31,024 bases of DNA, taken from a virus. Both the position numbers and the translations under genes were made by a program. The stretch's first letter is position 1. Each line of letters opens with the position of its first letter. This document shows positions 1 to 31,024 of this stretch, piece after piece. The notes beneath the pieces were generated by a model. That model was not told the origin of the DNA. It ran no database searches and worked only from the letters and a program-made list of their open reading frames with translations. The stretch lies in the IMG/VR virus record IMGVR_UViG_3300012983_000022, one strand, 5' to 3'.

Positions 1-120
1 AGATTTGTAAGCAGCAAGTTAGGTAGTTATAGAAAAATTAACGGTAAAACCATTAAACCAAGAAACAAGGAGAACATAGACGGAAATTATTTAACAGTAA
101 ATTTAAAAAGAAACGGTATA
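1..120. repeat. Terminal direct repeat, identical to 30905-31024. Best explained as circular-closure overlap of a genome of about 30,904 bp.
   Basis: Both window ends read agatttgtaagcagcaagttaggtag...aaaagaaacggtata. The HNH ORF reads through the junction in frame. Confidence 0.9.
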
Positions 121-450
121 GGGAAAACGAAATTTGTGCATAGATTGGTAGCAGAAGCATTCATACCAAACCCAAACAATTTTCAGCAAGTCAATCATAA
201 AGACGAAAACAAATTAAACAATGAAGTACCAAATCTTGAATGGTGCGATGCCAAATATAATTCAAATTATGGAGAAAGAAATAAAAAAATACTTGAACAA
301 AGAATAAAAATAGGTTATGTAAACACAGAAAATGTTGGTCTTTCAAAAGAAGAATACCGTAAAAAATATAGTAACGAATATAGAAAAAAGAACATTGAAA
401 AACTTAGGAAATATGACAGAGAATACAAAAAACGAAAAAGGTCGAATTAA
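1..450 (+). CDS. HNH/NUMOD4 homing endonuclease, remainder of the wrap-around gene. It appears 5'-partial only because the circle was linearised here.
   Basis: Frame 1 is open from base 1 to the stop at 448-450. It contains AEAFIPNPNNFQQVNHKDENKLNNEVPNLEWCDAKYNSNYG, an HNH_3-type motif. The 136 GTG start in the ORF track is an artefact of the window edge. Confidence 0.85.
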   Translation, partial: RFVSSKLGSYRKINGKTIKPRNKENIDGNYLTVNLKRNGIGKTKFVHRLVAEAFIPNPNNFQQVNHKDENKLNNEVPNLEWCDAKYNSNYGERNKKILEQRIKIGYVNTENVGLSKEEYRKKYSNEYRKKNIEKLRKYDREYKKRKRSN

Positions 451-652
451 AATTAGAATACATAGGCCAATATGGGGAACTCCCATCACATTTTTGGATA
501 AGTATTGCCCTACTCAATTTGAAATAGTGGGTATGGCAGAAGATAATGGACACGGATTTAGCGGTGCTGCAAATTGGGATGGATTAAATGCACATTGTGT
601 AATTAATGGCAAAAATATGTTTAAGAGAATTTTTATCAAGAAAGTTTCCTAA
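413..652 (+). CDS. EcoRI-methylase-like N6-adenine MTase, C-terminal fragment, copy 2 (C2).
   Basis: Encodes MTENTKNEKGRIKIRIHRPIWGTPITFLDKYCPTQFEIVG...GKNMFKRIFIKKVS, matching the family's C-terminal GVPITFLDKY..QFEI..G...RI.IKK pattern. ATG at 413 follows AGGAA. The upstream part of track ORF 332-652 overlaps the HNH gene. Confidence 0.7.
   Translation: MTENTKNEKGRIKIRIHRPIWGTPITFLDKYCPTQFEIVGMAEDNGHGFSGAANWDGLNAHCVINGKNMFKRIFIKKVS
449..526 (+). repeat. 78-bp near-identical direct repeat (76/78, with a 63-bp perfect core at 464-526). Its partner is 30178-30255.
   Basis: Aligned by eye: aaaattaga[a/g]taca[t/c]aggccaatatggggaactcccatcacatttttggataagtattgccctactcaatttgaaata. Confidence 0.9.
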
Positions 653-1115
653 TTAATATCCTTGCGTATGGAACAATAGGATGGTCGTTTTCATCAACCA
701 TATACAAGTCTCCATCTACTTGACCTCTTTTTTGCACCTCTTTTCTATATTGCTTGTGATGAGGCTTATAAGGTCTTACACCGATTTCCAAGCCCAAATT
801 GGCAATCCCTAAGCCCACTATCATAAATTGTTTACCGCTTAAAAAAATAGGATTTTTTTCCAAACATTCAACATAAAAGTCACTTTTCGGAGTGGCTTTT
901 TTTGTATAAGCACAATGAATCAATCCATCTTCCCAGAGATAACTCAATATAGTTATTGGCACTCCAATCACACCGTCATAGTCTATTGGTATGTCAACGG
1001 CTCTGTCAACATTTATTGCATCATAGTTGTCATAGTGGTCGTAATGGTGGTCTTTAATTGAATATCCTTTCAATACCAAATGCATTCTTTCTTTTGGCTC
1101 ATAGTCTGCTATCAT
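636..1115 (-). CDS. 5'-truncated EcoRI-methylase-like MTase fragment (end of the middle module plus the C-terminal module, unsplit). Possibly a relic.
   Basis: Contains YDNYDAINVDRAVDIPIDYDGVIGVPITILSY...PYARILIRKLS. It lacks the NPPF catalytic part and the FLIIGN segment. No clear promoter lies upstream. Confidence 0.6.
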   Translation of the reverse strand: MIADYEPKERMHLVLKGYSIKDHHYDHYDNYDAINVDRAVDIPIDYDGVIGVPITILSYLWEDGLIHCAYTKKATPKSDFYVECLEKNPIFLSGKQFMIVGLGIANLGLEIGVRPYKPHHKQYRKEVQKRGQVDGDLYMVDENDHPIVPYARILIRKLS

Positions 1116-4973: not shown

Positions 4974-5046
4974 TCTAAATAAAAGGATTTGAACCTTTAT
5001 CTCAGGTTCCCAAAACCAGTATTCTACCTGATTGAACTATATTTAG
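4974..5046 (-). tRNA. tRNA-Pro (anticodon UGG), 73 nt, no encoded CCA.
   Basis: Hand-folded cloverleaf: acceptor ctaaata/tatttag, D arm gttc-aatcaggta-gaat, anticodon arm ctggt-tttggga-acctg (U33, G37, one U-U mismatch), T arm aaagg-ttcaaat-ccttt. Confidence 0.8.
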
Positions 5047-5820: not shown

Positions 5821-5893
5821 TTGCGGGTGTAAGATTCGGACTTACGATTTCAAGTTTATGAGACTTGCGTGTTAACCACTGCACTAACCCGCA
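5821..5893 (-). tRNA. tRNA with CAU anticodon (elongator Met or lysidine-dependent Ile2), 73 nt.
   Basis: Acceptor tgcgggt/acccgca, anticodon arm caagt-ctcataa-acttg, T arm gtaag-tccgaat-cttac. The T-loop has C at position 55. Confidence 0.8.
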
Positions 5894-25862: not shown

Positions 25863-26148
25863 TTAAAAAACTTTTAATTTTATTTTGTATTTCCTTAATT
25901 CGTAGATATATAGTCGTTGGAGAAACTTTAAATAGTTTTGCACAATCCCTTGAATTTCCTATTTCAGCATATTCAAGTATTATTCGTCTATCGGTTTCAT
26001 CAAGTTTGGTATATATTATCTTTTTCAATTTTCTTATTTTTTCCTCATCCTCATCGAATATCGAATCATTTGGTTTATATTCATCAAGAATTTGGTATAT
26101 GTTCATTTCCGCTTCTTCGTATCGTTCTTTAATATTCTTACTATTCAT
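25846..26148 (-). CDS. Sigma-70 region-4-like HTH protein (C-terminal half of a split sigma-factor-like gene).
   Basis: LDETDRRIILEYAEIGNSRDCAKLFKVSPTTIYLRIKEIQNKIKSFL. The Met at 26148 overlaps the HNH stop (ATGAATAG). Confidence 0.6.
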   Translation of the reverse strand: MNSKNIKERYEEAEMNIYQILDEYKPNDSIFDEDEEKIRKLKKIIYTKLDETDRRIILEYAEIGNSRDCAKLFKVSPTTIYLRIKEIQNKIKSFLNDDNN

Positions 26149-26719
26149 AATATTTATTATTACTAAATTTCCATAAATACCCACCTGCTTGTTTTCTTTC
26201 ATTTTTACATACTTTTAATATGTTTGAATGTTGTACACCTGTAGCCTTTTGAGCCTCTATTGGCGAAATAAAATAATTAATAAATTTGCCATTCAATGTA
26301 TATTGTTCAACAGGTATTTGGCATCCTCTTGAATTATTTTTATTTTTAGTTTCTTGTATTTTATTTCTTGTGTTTCCATAAAGTGCATTGTATGATTTAT
26401 CACACCATTCCAAATTATCTACCCTATTGTTTAGTTTGTTTTCGTCTTTATGGTTAACACAGGGCAAATTATCAGGATTTGGTATGAATGCTTCAGCAAC
26501 TAAAATATTTATTCTTTTTGATTCATAAATACCATTTTTACAAAGTCTAAAATAATAATATCCAGAACCACAAATTTTTGGTGTTTCAATTTTACCTTTT
26601 AATTTAATTTTTCTTCCGTTTTTATCAATTATTATTCTATTAACGCTTCTGATTTTGCCAAAATTACTTATTTCATAATAGCCTTCATATCCTTTAATAA
26701 TTTTCCAAATTTCAATCAT
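26141..26719 (-). CDS. HNH/NUMOD4 homing endonuclease, paralog of the wrap-around HNH gene.
   Basis: WKIIKGYEGYYEISNFGKIRSV, AEAFIPNPDNLPCVNHKDENKLNNRVDNLEWCDKSYNALYG, and a C-terminal DNA-binding-like segment EAQKATGVQHSNILKVCK. Confidence 0.9.
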   Translation of the reverse strand: MIEIWKIIKGYEGYYEISNFGKIRSVNRIIIDKNGRKIKLKGKIETPKICGSGYYYFRLCKNGIYESKRINILVAEAFIPNPDNLPCVNHKDENKLNNRVDNLEWCDKSYNALYGNTRNKIQETKNKNNSRGCQIPVEQYTLNGKFINYFISPIEAQKATGVQHSNILKVCKNERKQAGGYLWKFSNNKYYE

Positions 26720-29392: not shown

Positions 29393-29794
29393 ATGAACAA
29401 AAACCTAAATCAAGCTAAAAGAGCTAAAAATGACGAATTTTATACGCAACTTGAAGACATAGAAAAGGAACTTGCTTGTTATGATGTTGAAAATTTCAAA
29501 GGACAAGTGATATATTGTCCTTGTGACGATTACAGATTGTCTAATTTTGTTAAATGCTTCAAGAACAATTTTGAATATCTTGGATTAAAGAAACTTATAG
29601 CCACCAACTATGATATTGGTGACGGTGCTTGGAAATATGAATATGACGGTGAAAATGAAACAATTACCAAACTTGAAGGTAATGGTGACTTTATGTCTGA
29701 TGAATGTACAAAAATAAAGGAAGAATGTGATATGGTTATAACGAATCCACCATTCTCATTGTTCAGAAAATTTGTAAAGTGGCTGTATGACTAA
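29393..29794 (+). CDS. EcoRI-methylase-like N6-adenine MTase, N-terminal catalytic fragment (N).
   Basis: NDEFYTQLEDIEKEL...VIYCPCDD...MVITNPPFSLFRKF carries motif IV (NPPF). It stops at 29792-29794, overlapping the next ATG (ATGACTAA). Confidence 0.85.
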   Translation: MNKNLNQAKRAKNDEFYTQLEDIEKELACYDVENFKGQVIYCPCDDYRLSNFVKCFKNNFEYLGLKKLIATNYDIGDGAWKYEYDGENETITKLEGNGDFMSDECTKIKEECDMVITNPPFSLFRKFVKWLYD

Positions 29795-30170
29795 GTTTTT
29801 GATTATCGGAAACCAAAATGCTATTACCTACAAGGAAATCTTTCCTTACATCAAAAACAACGAACTTTGGTTGGGAATGAATTGGGTTAAGGAGTTTATC
29901 CAACCTAACGGAGAAATTAAGAAATTTGGAAACATTTGTTGGTTTACCAATGTAGAAAACAAAAAGAGAAACCAACCTTTGGACTTATACCGCAAGTATA
30001 ATCCAAATGACTACAAAATCTATGACAATTATTGCGCAATAAATGTTGACAAGGTGGCTGAAATTCCAGAAGACGATTACATTGACATTGAAATTGATGA
30101 AGAAGACTATCCTAAATGGAAAGCCGCTTATGGCAATGATGTTGAATTAATTGAAGATGAAGAAAAATAA
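29787..30170 (+). CDS. MTase middle fragment, copy 1 (M1).
   Basis: MTKFLIIGNQNAITYKEIFPYIKNNELWLG...WFTN...YDNYCAINVDKVAEIPEDDY continues the family's sequence directly after the N fragment. It ends in an acidic tail. Confidence 0.8.
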   Translation: MTKFLIIGNQNAITYKEIFPYIKNNELWLGMNWVKEFIQPNGEIKKFGNICWFTNVENKKRNQPLDLYRKYNPNDYKIYDNYCAINVDKVAEIPEDDYIDIEIDEEDYPKWKAAYGNDVELIEDEEK

Positions 30171-30360
30171 TAAAAAGAAAATTAGAGTACACAGGCCAAT
30201 ATGGGGAACTCCCATCACATTTTTGGATAAGTATTGCCCTACTCAATTTGAAATACTCGGAATTGCCAATAGCGCAAGATGGATTGGTGATTTTCCGTGT
30301 TATACAATAATTAATGGGGAAAAAATATACAATAGAATTTTAATTAAAAAGATTAAATAA
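30157..30360 (+). CDS. MTase C-terminal fragment, copy 1 (C1).
   Basis: MKKNNKKKIRVHRPIWGTPITFLDKYCPTQFEILG...GEKIYNRILIKKIK. ATG at 30157 (the track starts at TTG 30151). Overlaps M1 by 14 nt in the +1 frame. Confidence 0.75.
   Translation: MKKNNKKKIRVHRPIWGTPITFLDKYCPTQFEILGIANSARWIGDFPCYTIINGEKIYNRILIKKIK
30178..30255 (+). repeat. Partner of the 78-bp near-identical repeat at 449-526.
   Basis: 76/78 identical, with a 63-bp perfect core at 30193-30255. Confidence 0.9.
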
Positions 30361-30368
30361 AACAACTT

Positions 30369-30794
30369 ATGGACTACAATAAGAAGTTTTTGATTTTGGG
30401 CAATAACAATGCAATCACTTATAAGGAAATTTTCCCATATATAAAAAACAATGAACTTTGGTTGGGCTTTTCCGCTAACAAGACTATGAAATTCCAACTT
30501 TCCGATTCTTACGAAAAGTGGGATGAAATGGACAAAAACGGAAAGAAATATGGCAAAGTCCCTGCAATCACTTGGTTTACAAACATTCCCCACAATAAGA
30601 GAAATCAACCTTTGGACTTATACCGAAAGTATAATCCAACTGACTATCCAAGGTACGATAACTATTTGGCTTTTAATGTTGACAAAGTGTCGGAAATCCC
30701 TGAAGATGAATACATTGATATTGAAATAGATGAATCAGAATTGGAAGATTGGATTAAAGCGTATGGCGATGATATTGAAATTTTGGAATCCTAA
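30369..30794 (+). CDS. MTase middle fragment, copy 2 (M2).
   Basis: MDYNKKFLILGNNNAITYKEIFPYIKNNELWLG...WFTN...YDNYLAFNVDKVSEIPEDEY plus an acidic tail. It has the same start and end boundaries as M1. Confidence 0.8.
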   Translation: MDYNKKFLILGNNNAITYKEIFPYIKNNELWLGFSANKTMKFQLSDSYEKWDEMDKNGKKYGKVPAITWFTNIPHNKRNQPLDLYRKYNPTDYPRYDNYLAFNVDKVSEIPEDEYIDIEIDESELEDWIKAYGDDIEILES

Positions 30795-30823
30795 ATAATT
30801 TTTGTAATTTATGGAAAAACGAT

Positions 30824-31024
30824 ATGGAAGAGATTTGGAAAGATGTTGTTGGTTATGAAGGATATTACCAAGTATCAAACAAAGGAAATGTTAGGTCGGT
30901 TGATAGATTTGTAAGCAGCAAGTTAGGTAGTTATAGAAAAATTAACGGTAAAACCATTAAACCAAGAAACAAGGAGAACATAGACGGAAATTATTTAACA
31001 GTAAATTTAAAAAGAAACGGTATA
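30824..31024 (+). CDS. HNH/NUMOD4 homing endonuclease, N-terminal part. The gene continues at 121 after the repeat.
   Basis: ATG at 30824 encodes MEEIWKDVVGYEGYYQVSNKGNVRSVDRFV..., a NUMOD4-like start that parallels MIEIWKIIKGYEGYYEISNFGKIRSV of the 26141-26719 paralog. Position 30905 is in frame with position 1. Confidence 0.85.
   Translation, partial: MEEIWKDVVGYEGYYQVSNKGNVRSVDRFVSSKLGSYRKINGKTIKPRNKENIDGNYLTVNLKRNGI
30905..31024. repeat. Second copy of the 120-bp terminal repeat (identical to 1-120).
   Basis: Direct comparison of the two window ends. Confidence 0.9.

What the first reader, a model, noticed from the sequence alone, without database searches (positions are those of the whole stretch)
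30369..31024. Second MTase back-half (M2 ... C2) lacking its own catalytic N-fragment: possible alternative specificity module
Seen:
- M2 (30369-30794) and C2 (413-652, across the circular junction) are paralogs of M1 and C1.
- The framework is conserved: FLI.GN.NAITYKEIFPYIKNNELWLG, WFTN, KRNQPLDLYRKYNP, IHRPIWGTPITFLDKYCPTQFEI.
- The inserts are completely different. M1 has MNWVKEFIQPNGEIKKFGNIC where M2 has FSANKTMKFQLSDSYEKWDEMDKNGKKYGKVPAIT. C1 has IANSARWIGDFPCYTIINGEKIYN where C2 has MAEDNGHGFSGAANWDGLNAHCVINGKNMFK.
- I found only one N fragment (NPPF motif) in the six-frame ORF track.

Inference: one catalytic N piece could pair with either back-half set and give two methylation specificities. 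That would be a multi-specific anti-restriction MTase built from exchangeable subunits rather than from tandem target-recognition domains in one chain, as in the Bacillus phage C5-MTases.
Basis: partly seen in the sequence, partly recalled or inferred. Interest (0 to 1): 0.75.

Follow-up and report, generated by a model that had tools for sequence, protein, structure and literature searches.

The report
Phage methylase built from shared pieces
This phage encodes one "front half" of a DNA adenine methylase and two different "back halves", one of them interrupted by a selfish endonuclease gene; many related phages carry one front half with two to four back halves, which suggests a kit for marking DNA at several different sequences.

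Summary
The window (circular, 120-nt terminal overlap) holds one N fragment (29393-29794, NPPF), then M1 (29787-30170), C1 (30157-30360), M2 (30369-30794) and C2 (413-652). All are colinear pieces of one single-chain family, Pfam EcoRI_methylase.

- The M2/C2 gap is a free-standing NUMOD4-HNH homing endonuclease (30824 to 450 across the junction).
- M2 is a 5'-truncated copy of a fused N-M gene.
- A third C-domain ORF (636-1115, minus strand) lies tail to tail with C2.

Comparative data favour the core idea:
- All 120 nearest homologues of N are free-standing proteins of 131-194 aa.
- All 9 informative stand-alone-N phage loci found through N alone carry 2-4 N-less back halves, each with different variable inserts.
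- Among 127 fused-gene loci only one has an N-less back half, and it is this window's own relative.

The back half is not a pure specificity module. It supplies strands beta5-beta7 of the catalytic fold.

Activity, subunit pairing and target motifs are untested. I rate it a new variant of a known kind, a split and probably multispecific phage N6-adenine methyltransferase. Interest is high.

The parts
29393..29794 (+). N: free-standing N-terminal half of an EcoRI-family N6-adenine MTase (133 aa). It holds strands beta1-beta4, the putative AdoMet-binding region and the NPPF motif, and ends ...NPPFSLFRKFVKWLYD*.
   Evidence: PF13651, E 2.9e-45. It is the only N in the window. All 120 nearest homologues are 131-194 aa stand-alone proteins. 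Fold map. The first ~275 nt are almost identical to the fused gene of L006 and then diverge, so the gene is a mosaic.
29787..30170 (+). M1: middle piece (127 aa). It holds strands beta5-beta7 with variable hairpin type 1 (MNWVKEFIQPNGEIKKFGNIC), the KRNQPLDLYRKYNP segment and an acidic linker tail.
   Evidence: PF13651 positions 164-275, E 2.8e-28. Its ATG overlaps the N stop by 8 nt (ATGACTAA). That overlap geometry is conserved in L016, L017, L020 and L012.
30157..30360 (+). C1: C-terminal piece (67 aa from the ATG at 30157). It holds IRVHRPIWGTPITFLDKYCPTQFEI, variable insert type 1 (IANSARWIGDFPCYTIINGEKIYN) and RILIKKIK.
   Evidence: PF13651 positions 279-303, E 1.5e-7. Relative to the single-chain gene of L006, a 19-nt block (GATGAAGAAAAATAATAAA) sits exactly at the HEG insertion point and supplies TAA TAA plus the ATG. 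The same C1 cassette follows a HEG in L008.
30360..30368 (+). Relic codons KQL upstream of the M2 start. They are left over from the helix that ends the N half of a fused N-M gene.
   Evidence: Alignment A1. Fused relatives read VKQLMDYNKKFLI.
30369..30794 (+). M2: second middle piece (141 aa) with variable hairpin type 2 (FSANKTMKFQLSDSYEKWDEMDKNGKKYGKVPAIT). It starts at the conserved internal Met of fused genes and ends ...GDDIEILES*.
   Evidence: PF13651 positions 159-275, E 8.8e-38. It is 98% identical to the M part of the fused N-M protein P0042. omega = 0.08 against the L099 copy. Identical copies occur in L007-L010.
30824..31024 (+). Homing endonuclease gene, 5' part (MEEIWKDVVGYEGYYQVSNKGN...). 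Positions 30905-31024 repeat 1-120.
   Evidence: NUMOD4, E 2.9e-16, and HNH_3, E 9.5e-7. PHROG 59 HNH endonuclease, E 8.7e-37. No group I intron was detected.
1..450 (+). Homing endonuclease gene, 3' part (176 aa in all). Its last 38 nt overlap the start of C2.
   Evidence: The same HEG sits at the M|C junction in L008 (twice) and L009. A different HNH HEG sits at the same junction in L002-L005.
413..652 (+). C2: second C-terminal piece (79 aa), with a leader read from inside the HEG ORF. It holds IRIHRPIWGTPITFLDKYCPTQFEIVG, variable insert type 2 (MAEDNGHGFSGAANWDGLNAHCVINGKNMFK) and RIFIKKVS.
   Evidence: PF13651 positions 279-344, E 1.1e-8. The C heads 30178-30266 and 449-537 are 93% identical in DNA over 89 nt, against 81-82% for the M frameworks. 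The MAEDNG-type cassette is common in single-chain relatives.
636..1115 (-). C3: convergent 159-aa ORF encoding only the post-WFTN C-terminal domain with a third insert type (LGIANLGLEIGVRPYKPHHKQ...). It lies tail to tail with C2, and the 3' ends overlap by 17 nt.
   Evidence: PF13651 positions 242-344, E 4.4e-16. It is conserved in L002-L006 and L009. Its insert is joined to a plus-strand C head in L099 and P0130.
515..531 (+). Left arm of an imperfect inverted repeat on the QFEIVG codons (CAATTTGAAATAGTGGG). The right arm is 814-830.
   Evidence: 14 of 17 nt are complementary. Relatives have 18-24 nt arms at 90% identity or more at the same place.
814..830 (-). Right arm of that inverted repeat, on the KQFMIVG codons of C3.

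Best explanation
The locus is a modular EcoRI-family (PF13651) N6-adenine DNA methyltransferase made of separately translated pieces.

The pieces:
- N (133 aa) supplies the AdoMet-binding half of the Rossmann fold (beta1-beta4) and the catalytic NPPF loop.
- Each back half supplies strands beta5-beta7, with a variable beta6-beta7 hairpin, plus a C-terminal DNA-binding domain with a hypervariable insert after QFEIVG.
- In this lineage each back half is further cut into M and C. The cut lies inside a small strand-helix-strand|strand linker module, which is a homing-endonuclease insertion site.

Proposed mechanism:
- N docks in trans onto M1 or onto M2, by beta4-beta5 edge pairing, and completes the fold.
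- C1 or C2 joins through the linker module.
- The result is at least two enzymes with different target sequences that share one N subunit. I infer that they protect phage DNA from several host restriction systems.

Origin of set 2:
- M2-HEG-C2 was captured by recombination from a fused N-M|HEG|C gene.
- The HNH endonuclease is a selfish passenger. Its insertion is tolerated because the linker holds M and C together.

Shown here: the anatomy, the homologies, the recurrence of one N with many back halves, and fold compatibility.
Inferred: trans-assembly, activity, distinct specificities, and the anti-restriction role.
For: 1. The pieces are colinear with one Pfam model. N+M1+C1 aligns end to end with single-chain relatives.

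2. N is a true subunit class.
- All 120 best hits to N are 131-194 aa stand-alone proteins at 59-94% identity. Some clusters hold up to 1191 members, and many sit on 32-39 kb contigs.
- They are each other's nearest neighbours.
- The 8-nt stop/start overlap ATGnnTrr is conserved with different stop codons in five diverged loci.

3. One N goes with many back halves.
- L029: N|MC|MC|MC|MC. L016: N|MC|MC-MC. L014: N(-)|MC|MC-MC. L011 and L012: N|MC-MC. L020: N|MC|MC.
- In scans ascertained only through N, all 9 informative stand-alone-N loci have at least 2 back halves: L020, L029, L193 and L195-L200.
- Only 1 of 127 fused loci has an N-less back half (Fisher p = 3e-11, partly ascertainment-biased).

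4. Units within a locus never share hairpin or C-insert types. The same types recur between loci as shuffled cassettes.

5. M2 and C2 keep every invariant framework residue of the family. The M2 type is under strong purifying selection (omega 0.08). It also occurs as the second unit of an N|MC-MC locus (L012/P0121).

6. Predicted structures.
- The N|M cut falls between the helix after NPPF and beta5.
- The M|C cut falls in a hairpin of a confident linker module.
- A chimeric N+M2+C2 chain folds alike: pLDDT 85, pTM 0.81.

7. The M|C split recurs with two different HEGs (L002-L005, L008, L009) and without a HEG (L099 and the window's M1|C1). This parallels the HEG-split but functional NrdA of phage Aeh1 (PMC3045599).
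Against: - There is no biochemical or methylome evidence for any member of the split clade.
- The split after motif IV cuts the catalytic domain itself. I know of no precedent for that in natural split MTases; the known ones, M.AquI and M.EcoHK31I, are cut elsewhere (PMC3404938).
- Set 2 in this window arose by capture of a truncated gene, and it is further interrupted by a HEG. It could be a young by-product.
- All copies of M2 in this lineage are identical, so selection after the capture cannot be measured.
- Some units in other arrays depart from residues that are invariant in single-chain enzymes (for example L016 unit 1 and L020 unit 2). They could be decaying.
- AF2 on a concatenated chain mostly reflects homology. 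It is not a test of trans-assembly.
- Part of the locus survey was ascertained through tandem MC-MC proteins.
Confidence: 0.6

Rival explanations
1. By-product of homing-endonuclease traffic. M2-HEG-C2 is a non-functional partial duplicate left by aberrant repair or recombination with a co-infecting phage that carried a fused N-M2|HEG|C2 allele. Only N+M1+C1 (or nothing) is active.
For: - M2 keeps three relic codons of a fused gene and starts at an internal Met.
- The C heads flanking the HEG site are 93% identical in DNA, against 81-82% for the M frameworks. That looks like a co-conversion tract.
- L008 shows the same HEG copied into the other M|C junction.
- M2 copies in the lineage are identical, so the arrangement is young.
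Against: - M2 and C2 are intact and keep all invariant residues.
- The same C1|M2|HEG block persists behind two different front ends, the window and L008.
- Back-half ORFs that start at the same Met (MDYxKKF) recur elsewhere: L014 unit 1 and P0234.
- Stand-alone N is linked to multiple back halves in 9 of 9 unbiased loci.
Confidence: 0.25
2. Translational recoding joins the pieces. Ribosomes shift frame at the N/M1 and M1/C1 overlaps to make a normal single-chain enzyme, and the 'subunits' are annotation artefacts. M2 and C2 would then be superfluous.
For: - Relative to the single-chain gene of L006, the window differs by non-3n indels at both junctions: 8 nt fewer and 19 nt more.
- There is an A-rich run at the M1/C1 junction.
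Against: - No slippery heptamer is conserved at the N/M junction.
- What is conserved is an ATG placed 8 nt before stops of all three kinds.
- In L014 the N gene lies on the opposite strand from its back halves.
- In L197 a 110-aa ORF separates N from the back halves.
- Arrays of 3-4 separate back halves cannot all be fused to one N.
Confidence: 0.05
3. The back halves act without N. For example, they could be DNA-binding proteins that mask sites or regulate genes, with no methyl transfer.
For: - The C-terminal domain exists alone as an ORF: C3 at 636-1115, conserved in relatives.
- Some array units diverge at catalytic-fold positions.
Against: - M pieces keep the beta5-beta7 framework and WFTN with strong conservation. 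That makes sense only as part of a complete Rossmann fold.
- The back halves are tightly linked, and apparently translationally coupled, to an N gene.
Confidence: 0.05
4. Assembly or sequencing artefact: two population alleles collapsed in tandem, or false frameshifts.
For: - The contig is a metagenome assembly that closes inside a HEG.
- A second, related HEG lies at 26141-26719.
Against: - The same junctions occur in L007, L008, L009 and L010, from other assemblies including a JGI sample, at 99.75-100% identity.
- The two HEGs are only ~73% identical over 169 nt.
- The N/M split geometry is conserved across diverged lineages.
Confidence: 0.03

Closest known systems
Single-chain EcoRI-family N6-adenine methyltransferases (Pfam PF13651; M.EcoRI and phage or bacterial orphan homologues)
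   Same: - Same fold and motifs: NDEFYT, CxCDD, NPPF, KFLIIGN, WFTN, GVPITF, QFEIVG.
- The pieces are colinear with the model.
- Single-chain relatives are up to 73% identical.
   Different: - Here the chain is cut after the helix that follows NPPF, and again in a lineage-specific linker.
- The back part is present twice, and the C-terminal domain a third time.
- About 3% of the top representative clusters are short N-only proteins.
Multispecific cytosine-5 methyltransferases of Bacillus phages (SPR, phi3T, rho11s, H2) (from my own knowledge)
   Same: One catalytic moiety is proposed to serve several target-recognising modules, giving a phage protection against several restriction systems.
   Different: - Those are C5 enzymes with tandem TRDs inside one polypeptide and a complete catalytic domain.
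- Here the enzyme is an amino-MTase.
- The repeated unit is a separate polypeptide (or a tandem MC-MC protein) that also carries half of the catalytic fold.
- Multispecificity is not demonstrated.
Naturally two-subunit DNA methyltransferases M.AquI and M.EcoHK31I, and fragment complementation of M.SssI and M.HhaI (PMC3404938, PMC2836561)
   Same: A DNA methyltransferase reconstituted from two separately encoded polypeptides.
   Different: - Those are C5 enzymes cut within or next to the variable region (motif VIII/IX), or with only motif IX detached.
- They have one partner each.
- Here the cut follows motif IV, and one N is linked to 2-4 alternative partners.
Genes in pieces created by free-standing homing endonucleases: the Aeh1 nrdA-a / mobE / nrdA-b case (PMC3045599)
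   Same: - A free-standing HEG is inserted in a conserved coding region.
- Both fragments are kept as ORFs.
- The HEG region provides the new stop and start.
- Terminal tails at the cut may help reassembly.
   Different: - The target is a methyltransferase.
- The same junction is hit by two different HNH HEGs.
- It also exists as a HEG-less split (M1|C1, L099) and as an in-frame single chain (P0001, P0017).
- A role for the tails was not tested.
Type I restriction-modification systems with several or invertible hsdS specificity genes (from my own knowledge)
   Same: - Analogous logic: one catalytic component combined with alternative specificity components.
- Tail-to-tail alternative cassettes bounded by short inverted repeats are seen in relatives.
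   Different: - HsdS is a pure DNA-recognition subunit and HsdM is a complete MTase.
- Here the alternative component completes the catalytic fold.
- No recombinase or actual inversion was shown.

Membership tests
EcoRI_methylase family (Pfam PF13651) N6-adenine MTase | Match to the family HMM above Pfam's gathering score (26.4 bits) | tested here: met
   Bits per piece: N 155.5, M1 99.7, C1 31.6, M2 130.9, C2 35.2, concatenated N+M1+C1 279.3. C3 59.6.
EcoRI_methylase family (Pfam PF13651) N6-adenine MTase | Catalytic (D/N)PP(Y/F) motif IV in the protein that carries the rest of the fold | tested here: not met
   NPPF is present only in N (29393-29794). M1, M2, C1 and C2 lack it, and there is no second N in the window. 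The locus belongs to the family by homology, but no single polypeptide is a complete enzyme.
EcoRI_methylase family (Pfam PF13651) N6-adenine MTase | AdoMet-dependent methylation of adenine N6 in a defined target | not testable with these tools
   Needs expression plus SMRT or ONT sequencing, or a biochemical assay.
Multispecific phage C5-MTases (SPR/phi3T type) | Cytosine-5 MTase motifs (PCQ, ENV) and tandem TRDs in one chain | tested here: not met
   The Pfam hit is to an amino-MTase family with NPPF. The repeated units are separate ORFs that include beta5-beta7.
Multispecific phage C5-MTases (SPR/phi3T type) | Several target specificities from one catalytic moiety | not testable with these tools
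   Only inferred, from different inserts in each unit.
Natural split MTases (M.AquI / M.EcoHK31I type) | Two polypeptides both required for activity | not testable with these tools
   Inferred from fold completion and from the conserved stand-alone N clade.
Natural split MTases (M.AquI / M.EcoHK31I type) | Cut in or next to the variable region, between motifs VIII and IX/X, of a C5 enzyme | tested here: not met
   The N|M cut lies between the helix after motif IV and beta5. The M|C cut lies in a C-terminal linker. Description of the known cases is from PMC3404938.
HEG-split 'genes in pieces' (Aeh1 nrdA/mobE type) | Free-standing HEG ORF inside a coding region that is continuous in relatives | tested here: met
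   NUMOD4 + HNH_3 ORF between M2 and C2. P0001 and P0017 read ...DDIEILEKKIRVHRP... without interruption.
HEG-split 'genes in pieces' (Aeh1 nrdA/mobE type) | No intron or intein that could restore a continuous product | tested here: met
   No Rfam group I or II intron hit in the window. Only ~30 nt lie between the M2 stop and the HEG start, and the HEG overlaps C2. The HEG is out of frame and bounded by stops, so it is not an intein.
HEG-split 'genes in pieces' (Aeh1 nrdA/mobE type) | Split product still functional, assembled through tails at the cut | not testable with these tools
   The linker is predicted as a strand-helix-strand|strand module with high pLDDT. Function was not tested.
Invertible or cassette-switching specificity loci (phase-variable hsdS type) | Alternative 3' cassettes tail to tail, bounded by inverted repeats | tested here: inconclusive
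   Window: arms 515-531 and 814-830 match at only 14 of 17 nt. Relatives L013, L025, L028, L001, L099, L006 and L102 have 18-24 nt arms at 90% identity or more on the QFEIV codons, and start-less silent cassettes occur in L001/L031, L013, L025 and L028.
Invertible or cassette-switching specificity loci (phase-variable hsdS type) | Both orientations present in a population; a dedicated recombinase | tested here: inconclusive
   Protein pairs with 93-100% identical heads and unrelated tails are common: 673 pairs. The silent cassette of L001 is the expressed tail of P0079. For the window's own sequence, neither the inverted nor the native junction was found in JGI metagenomes or IMG/VR. No recombinase was looked for systematically.

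The most novel reading that the evidence does not exclude
A combinatorial methyltransferase kit.
- One shared N subunit assembles with any M (hairpin module) and any C (insert module).
- This phage could then make up to four enzymes (M1 or M2 with C1 or C2), or more if the C3 insert is swapped in at the QFEIVG inverted repeat.
- Homing endonucleases at the M|C junction, and inverted-repeat cassettes at QFEIVG, would act as the engines that shuffle specificity modules between phages.
- More generally, the stand-alone-N clade would be a previously unrecognised class of multi-subunit, multispecific phage N6-adenine methyltransferases whose catalytic Rossmann fold is completed in trans.
Probability: 0.2. 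Interest if true: 0.9.

Novelty: new variant of a known kind. Interest (0 to 1): 0.78.

Why it matters
Phage methyltransferases are a main route of escape from restriction.

- **A new route to multispecificity.** The only well-known multispecific solution is the tandem-TRD cytosine-5 enzymes of Bacillus phages. A family in which half of the catalytic fold is a shared subunit, and the other half comes in 2-4 interchangeable versions, would be a new structural solution.
- **Annotation.** It would explain many 'truncated methylase' calls in phage metagenomes.
- **Protein science and engineering.** It would give a natural model for trans-completion of a Rossmann fold. It could also serve as a scaffold for split or programmable adenine methyltransferases.
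- **Selfish elements.** The locus shows how homing endonucleases fragment a gene and may also diversify it.
- **Testability.** The claim can be tested directly by co-expression and long-read methylome sequencing.

Tried and rejected
- **Group I intron or intein joining M2 to C2: rejected.** Rfam found only two tRNAs in the window. The HEG is a separate out-of-frame ORF, with ~30 nt of 5' spacer and a 3' overlap with C2.
- **Fresh frameshift pseudogene at N/M1: rejected.** The N tail (FVKWLYD*), the M1 start (MTKFLII) and the 8-nt overlap belong to a conserved stand-alone class.
- **Recent in-genome duplication of M and C: rejected.** The M frameworks are only 81-82% identical in DNA and the inserts are unrelated.
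- **Closest annotated phages: nothing near.** DNA search of 50,697 phage records gave only short HEG and MTase hits. Protein search gave single-chain MTases at 32-46% identity.
- **Solved structures: uninformative.** There was no sequence hit in the PDB. Fold search gave only generic class-I MTases at TM 0.33 or below, so the DNA-contact roles of the inserts could not be mapped.
- **Promoter and terminator scans: uninformative.** Hits were no more frequent than in shuffles.
- **Inverted isoform of the window's C2/C3 segment: not found.** There were no matches, not even to the native form, in JGI metagenomes or IMG/VR.
- **Context of P0132: uninformative.** The gene sits at a contig end.
- **Literature: no description found.** Six full-text searches found no account of a split EcoRI-family MTase or of a 'one N, many back halves' architecture. 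The library is incomplete, so this is not proof of novelty.
- **dN/dS as a test of M2 function after capture: not possible.** All lineage copies are identical. Only long-range purifying selection could be shown.
Full report
**1. What is in the sequence**

The window is a circularly closed contig. Its first and last 120 nt are identical, so 30905-31024 repeats 1-120 and the true length is 30,904 nt. It is a tailed phage: it encodes a large terminase, a portal, a protease-like protein, a tape-measure-like protein, an Erf-like annealing protein and two tRNAs.

Read across the junction, the plus strand holds, in order:
- N, 29393-29794
- M1, 29787-30170
- C1, 30157-30360
- M2, 30369-30794
- a 176-aa ORF, from 30824 across the junction to 450
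- C2, 413-652

A convergent minus-strand ORF lies at 636-1115.

tblastn finds a single N. M1 and M2 are 60% identical, and C1 and C2 are 57% identical.

**2. What the pieces are**

Against Pfam, N, M and C map colinearly onto one model, PF13651 EcoRI_methylase:
- N covers the first ~160 of its 345 positions (shown for the concatenated chain, and for N alone at 1-71).
- M covers ~159-275.
- C covers 279-345.

The concatenated N+M1+C1 aligns over 99-100% of its length with single-chain proteins. The best is P0001, at 73% identity.

The ORF between M2 and C2 is a NUMOD4 + HNH_3 homing endonuclease (HEG). No intron is detectable. The minus-strand ORF is a third copy of the C-terminal domain only (PF13651 positions 242-344).

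**3. Fold map**

An AF2 model of single-chain P0001 (pLDDT 86.6) places the features as follows:
- NPPF directly follows beta4. A helix (residues 123-135) comes next, then beta5 (KFLIIGN).
- The N|M cut lies between that helix and beta5.
- M therefore carries beta5-beta7 of the Rossmann fold. The M 'insert' is the beta6-beta7 hairpin, between LWLG and CWFTN.
- The M|C cut lies in a lineage-specific linker of about 35 aa. The model shows it as strand-helix-strand|strand with high confidence.
- The C 'insert' follows QFEIVG and is the least confident region.

There is no solved structure of this family.

So the back half is not merely a recognition module. The active site would be composite.

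**4. How the window's arrangement arose**

- Compared with the single-chain gene of L006, the window has 8 nt fewer at the N/M1 junction. It also has a 19-nt block at the M1/C1 junction that supplies TAA TAA and an ATG.
- M2 starts at the conserved internal Met of fused genes (VKQL-MDYNKKF). The three codons before it still read KQL.
- P0042 is a fused N-M2 protein 98% identical to M2.
- The M frameworks are 81-82% identical in DNA, whereas the C heads next to the HEG site are 93% identical.
- L008, from another sample, has a different fused front end (N-M3). It is followed by the same HEG, then C1, then an identical M2, then the HEG again. It shares the C1|M2|HEG block with the window at 99.75% identity.

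My reading is that set 2 was captured from a fused, HEG-bearing allele by recombination. The HEG has since moved between the two M|C junctions.

The M|C junction is a hot spot:
- A different HNH HEG occupies it in L002-L005.
- HEG-less splits exist in L099 and in the window's M1|C1.
- In-frame single chains with the linker also exist: P0001 and P0017.

This parallels the functional HEG-split NrdA of phage Aeh1 (PMC3045599).

**5. Is the 'one N, two back halves' idea supported?**

- **N is a conserved free-standing protein.** The window's N ends FVKWLYD*, like other stand-alone N proteins. Fused genes read YVKQLMDY... at that point. All 120 best database hits to N are 131-194 aa, at 59-94% identity. 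Many are on 32-39 kb contigs.
- **The N/M junction is conserved.** The 8-nt overlap ATGnnTrr recurs in five diverged loci with TAA, TAG or TGA stops.
- **One N goes with several back halves in independent phage contigs**:
  - L029: N|MC|MC|MC|MC
  - L016: N|MC|MC-MC
  - L014: N on the opposite strand, then MC|MC-MC
  - L011 and L012: N|MC-MC
  - L017: N|M-MC
  - L020: N|MC|MC
- **An unbiased sample agrees.** Two IMG/VR scans ascertained only through N gave nine informative stand-alone-N loci (L020, L029, L193, L195-L200). All nine have at least 2 back halves. ORFs were verified in L195 and L197, where they overlap by 4 nt (ATGA).
- **Fused loci lack extra back halves.** Only 1 of 127 has an N-less back half (L008). 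Fisher p = 3e-11, though that figure includes loci ascertained through MC-MC proteins.
- **Units differ within a locus.** No two units in one locus share hairpin or C-insert types, while the same types recur between loci.
- **M2 and C2 look intact.** They keep all family-invariant residues. The M2 type shows omega 0.08 over dS of about 1.2.
- **Fold compatibility.** A concatenated N+M2+C2 chain is predicted to fold like P0001: pLDDT 85.2, pTM 0.81.

**6. Mechanism proposed**

Shown: anatomy, homology, recurrence and fold compatibility.

Inferred:
- N pairs in trans with each M through the beta4-beta5 edge.
- C joins through the linker.
- Each N-M-C assembly methylates a different target, set by the hairpin and the C insert.
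- The phage thereby resists several restriction systems.

Because the M tails and C heads of the two sets are nearly identical, cross-pairing (M1 with C2, M2 with C1) cannot be excluded.

**7. Rivals**

- The main rival is that set 2 is a young, non-functional by-product of HEG-driven recombination (0.25).
- Recoding into a single chain is unlikely. There is no conserved slippery site, N lies on the opposite strand in L014, and an ORF intervenes in L197.
- Assembly artefact is excluded by four independent contigs.

**8. Side finding**

In several relatives, the MTase gene's 3' end is followed tail to tail by an inverted C cassette that begins at or just upstream of the QFEIVG motif; in L001/L031, L013, L025 and L028 it has no start codon.
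- 18-24 nt inverted repeats, at 90% identity or more, sit on those codons.
- Among 195 homologues, 673 pairs have heads 93-100% identical up to QFEIV but unrelated tails.
- The silent cassette of L001 is the expressed tail of P0079.
- The window has the same geometry (C2 against C3), but its repeat matches at only 14 of 17 nt.
- The C3 insert is found joined to a plus-strand C head in L099 and P0130.

This suggests cassette switching at QFEIVG. Inversion itself was not shown.

**9. Novelty**

Known relatives of the idea are:
- multispecific C5-MTases of Bacillus phages (my own knowledge);
- two-subunit C5-MTases M.AquI and M.EcoHK31I (PMC3404938);
- HEG-split genes (PMC3045599);
- multi-hsdS Type I systems (my own knowledge).

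None combines an amino-MTase, a cut after motif IV, and one N linked to 2-4 alternative fold-completing partners. Six literature searches found no description, but the library is incomplete.

I classify it as a new variant of a known kind. Interest is 0.78. Confidence in the functional reading for this window is 0.6.

Noticed in passing
window 413-1115 (arms 515-531 and 814-830); L013:5374-5600; L025:4770-5033; L028:4855-5097; L001:4348-4572; L099:4888-5284: Tail-to-tail plus- and minus-strand C-insert cassettes are bounded by inverted repeats exactly on the QFEIVG codons. Relatives have start-less silent cassettes. Many homologue pairs have identical heads but unrelated tails. This is the geometry of an invertible or cassette-switching specificity module.
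   Followed up: partly
window 636-1115 (-): A 159-aa ORF encodes only the post-WFTN C-terminal domain of the methylase, with its own Met. It is conserved in L002-L006 and L009 with swapped inserts. Whether it is an expressed protein or a cassette store is unknown.
   Followed up: partly
window 26141-26719 (-): A second homing endonuclease (NUMOD4 + HNH_3 + NUMOD1, 192 aa) lies among small early-type genes. It is about 73% identical in DNA to the MTase-locus HEG over 169 nt.
   Followed up: no
window 30201-30215 and 472-486: A perfect palindrome, ATGGGGAACTCCCAT, occurs in both C heads (codons IWGTPI), 25-40 nt downstream of the HEG insertion point and inside the 93%-identical tract. It may be part of the endonuclease recognition site.
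   Followed up: no
window 29393-29670 vs L006:4882-5160: The first ~275 nt of N are almost identical to the fused single-chain gene of L006, after which the two diverge sharply. There is a recombination breakpoint inside N.
   Followed up: partly
window 4974-5046 and 5821-5893 (-): Two tRNA genes (Rfam RF00005, 65.7 and 63 bits).
   Followed up: no
window 1-120 = 30905-31024: An exact 120-nt terminal direct repeat: a circular or terminally redundant assembly that closes inside the HEG ORF.
   Followed up: yes
L085:2033-7091; L030, L057, L065, L067: An alternative strategy in other viral contigs: tandem arrays of 2-5 complete single-chain NMC paralogues, rather than one N with several back halves.
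   Followed up: no
L029:2341-3969: A 542-aa protein with an NPPY motif (FINPPYATSASG), probably another amino-methyltransferase, lies directly upstream of the N|MCx4 array. I did not run a family search on it.
   Followed up: no
L016:3573-4004, L020:5028-5618, L012 unit 1, L197:5251-6134: Some back-half units in arrays depart from residues that are invariant in single-chain enzymes (for example W164 and the QFE motif). This is either relaxed constraint or a distinct sub-family rule.
   Followed up: partly
L104, L139, L142, L145, L150, L160 (viral and bacterial contigs): Extra partial C cassettes lie downstream of single-chain genes on the same strand (direct orientation). They may be silent cassettes for gene conversion.
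   Followed up: no
L197:4905-5237: A 110-aa ORF is inserted between the stand-alone N gene and its three back-half genes. I read it by eye as acetyltransferase-like; no family search was run.
   Followed up: no
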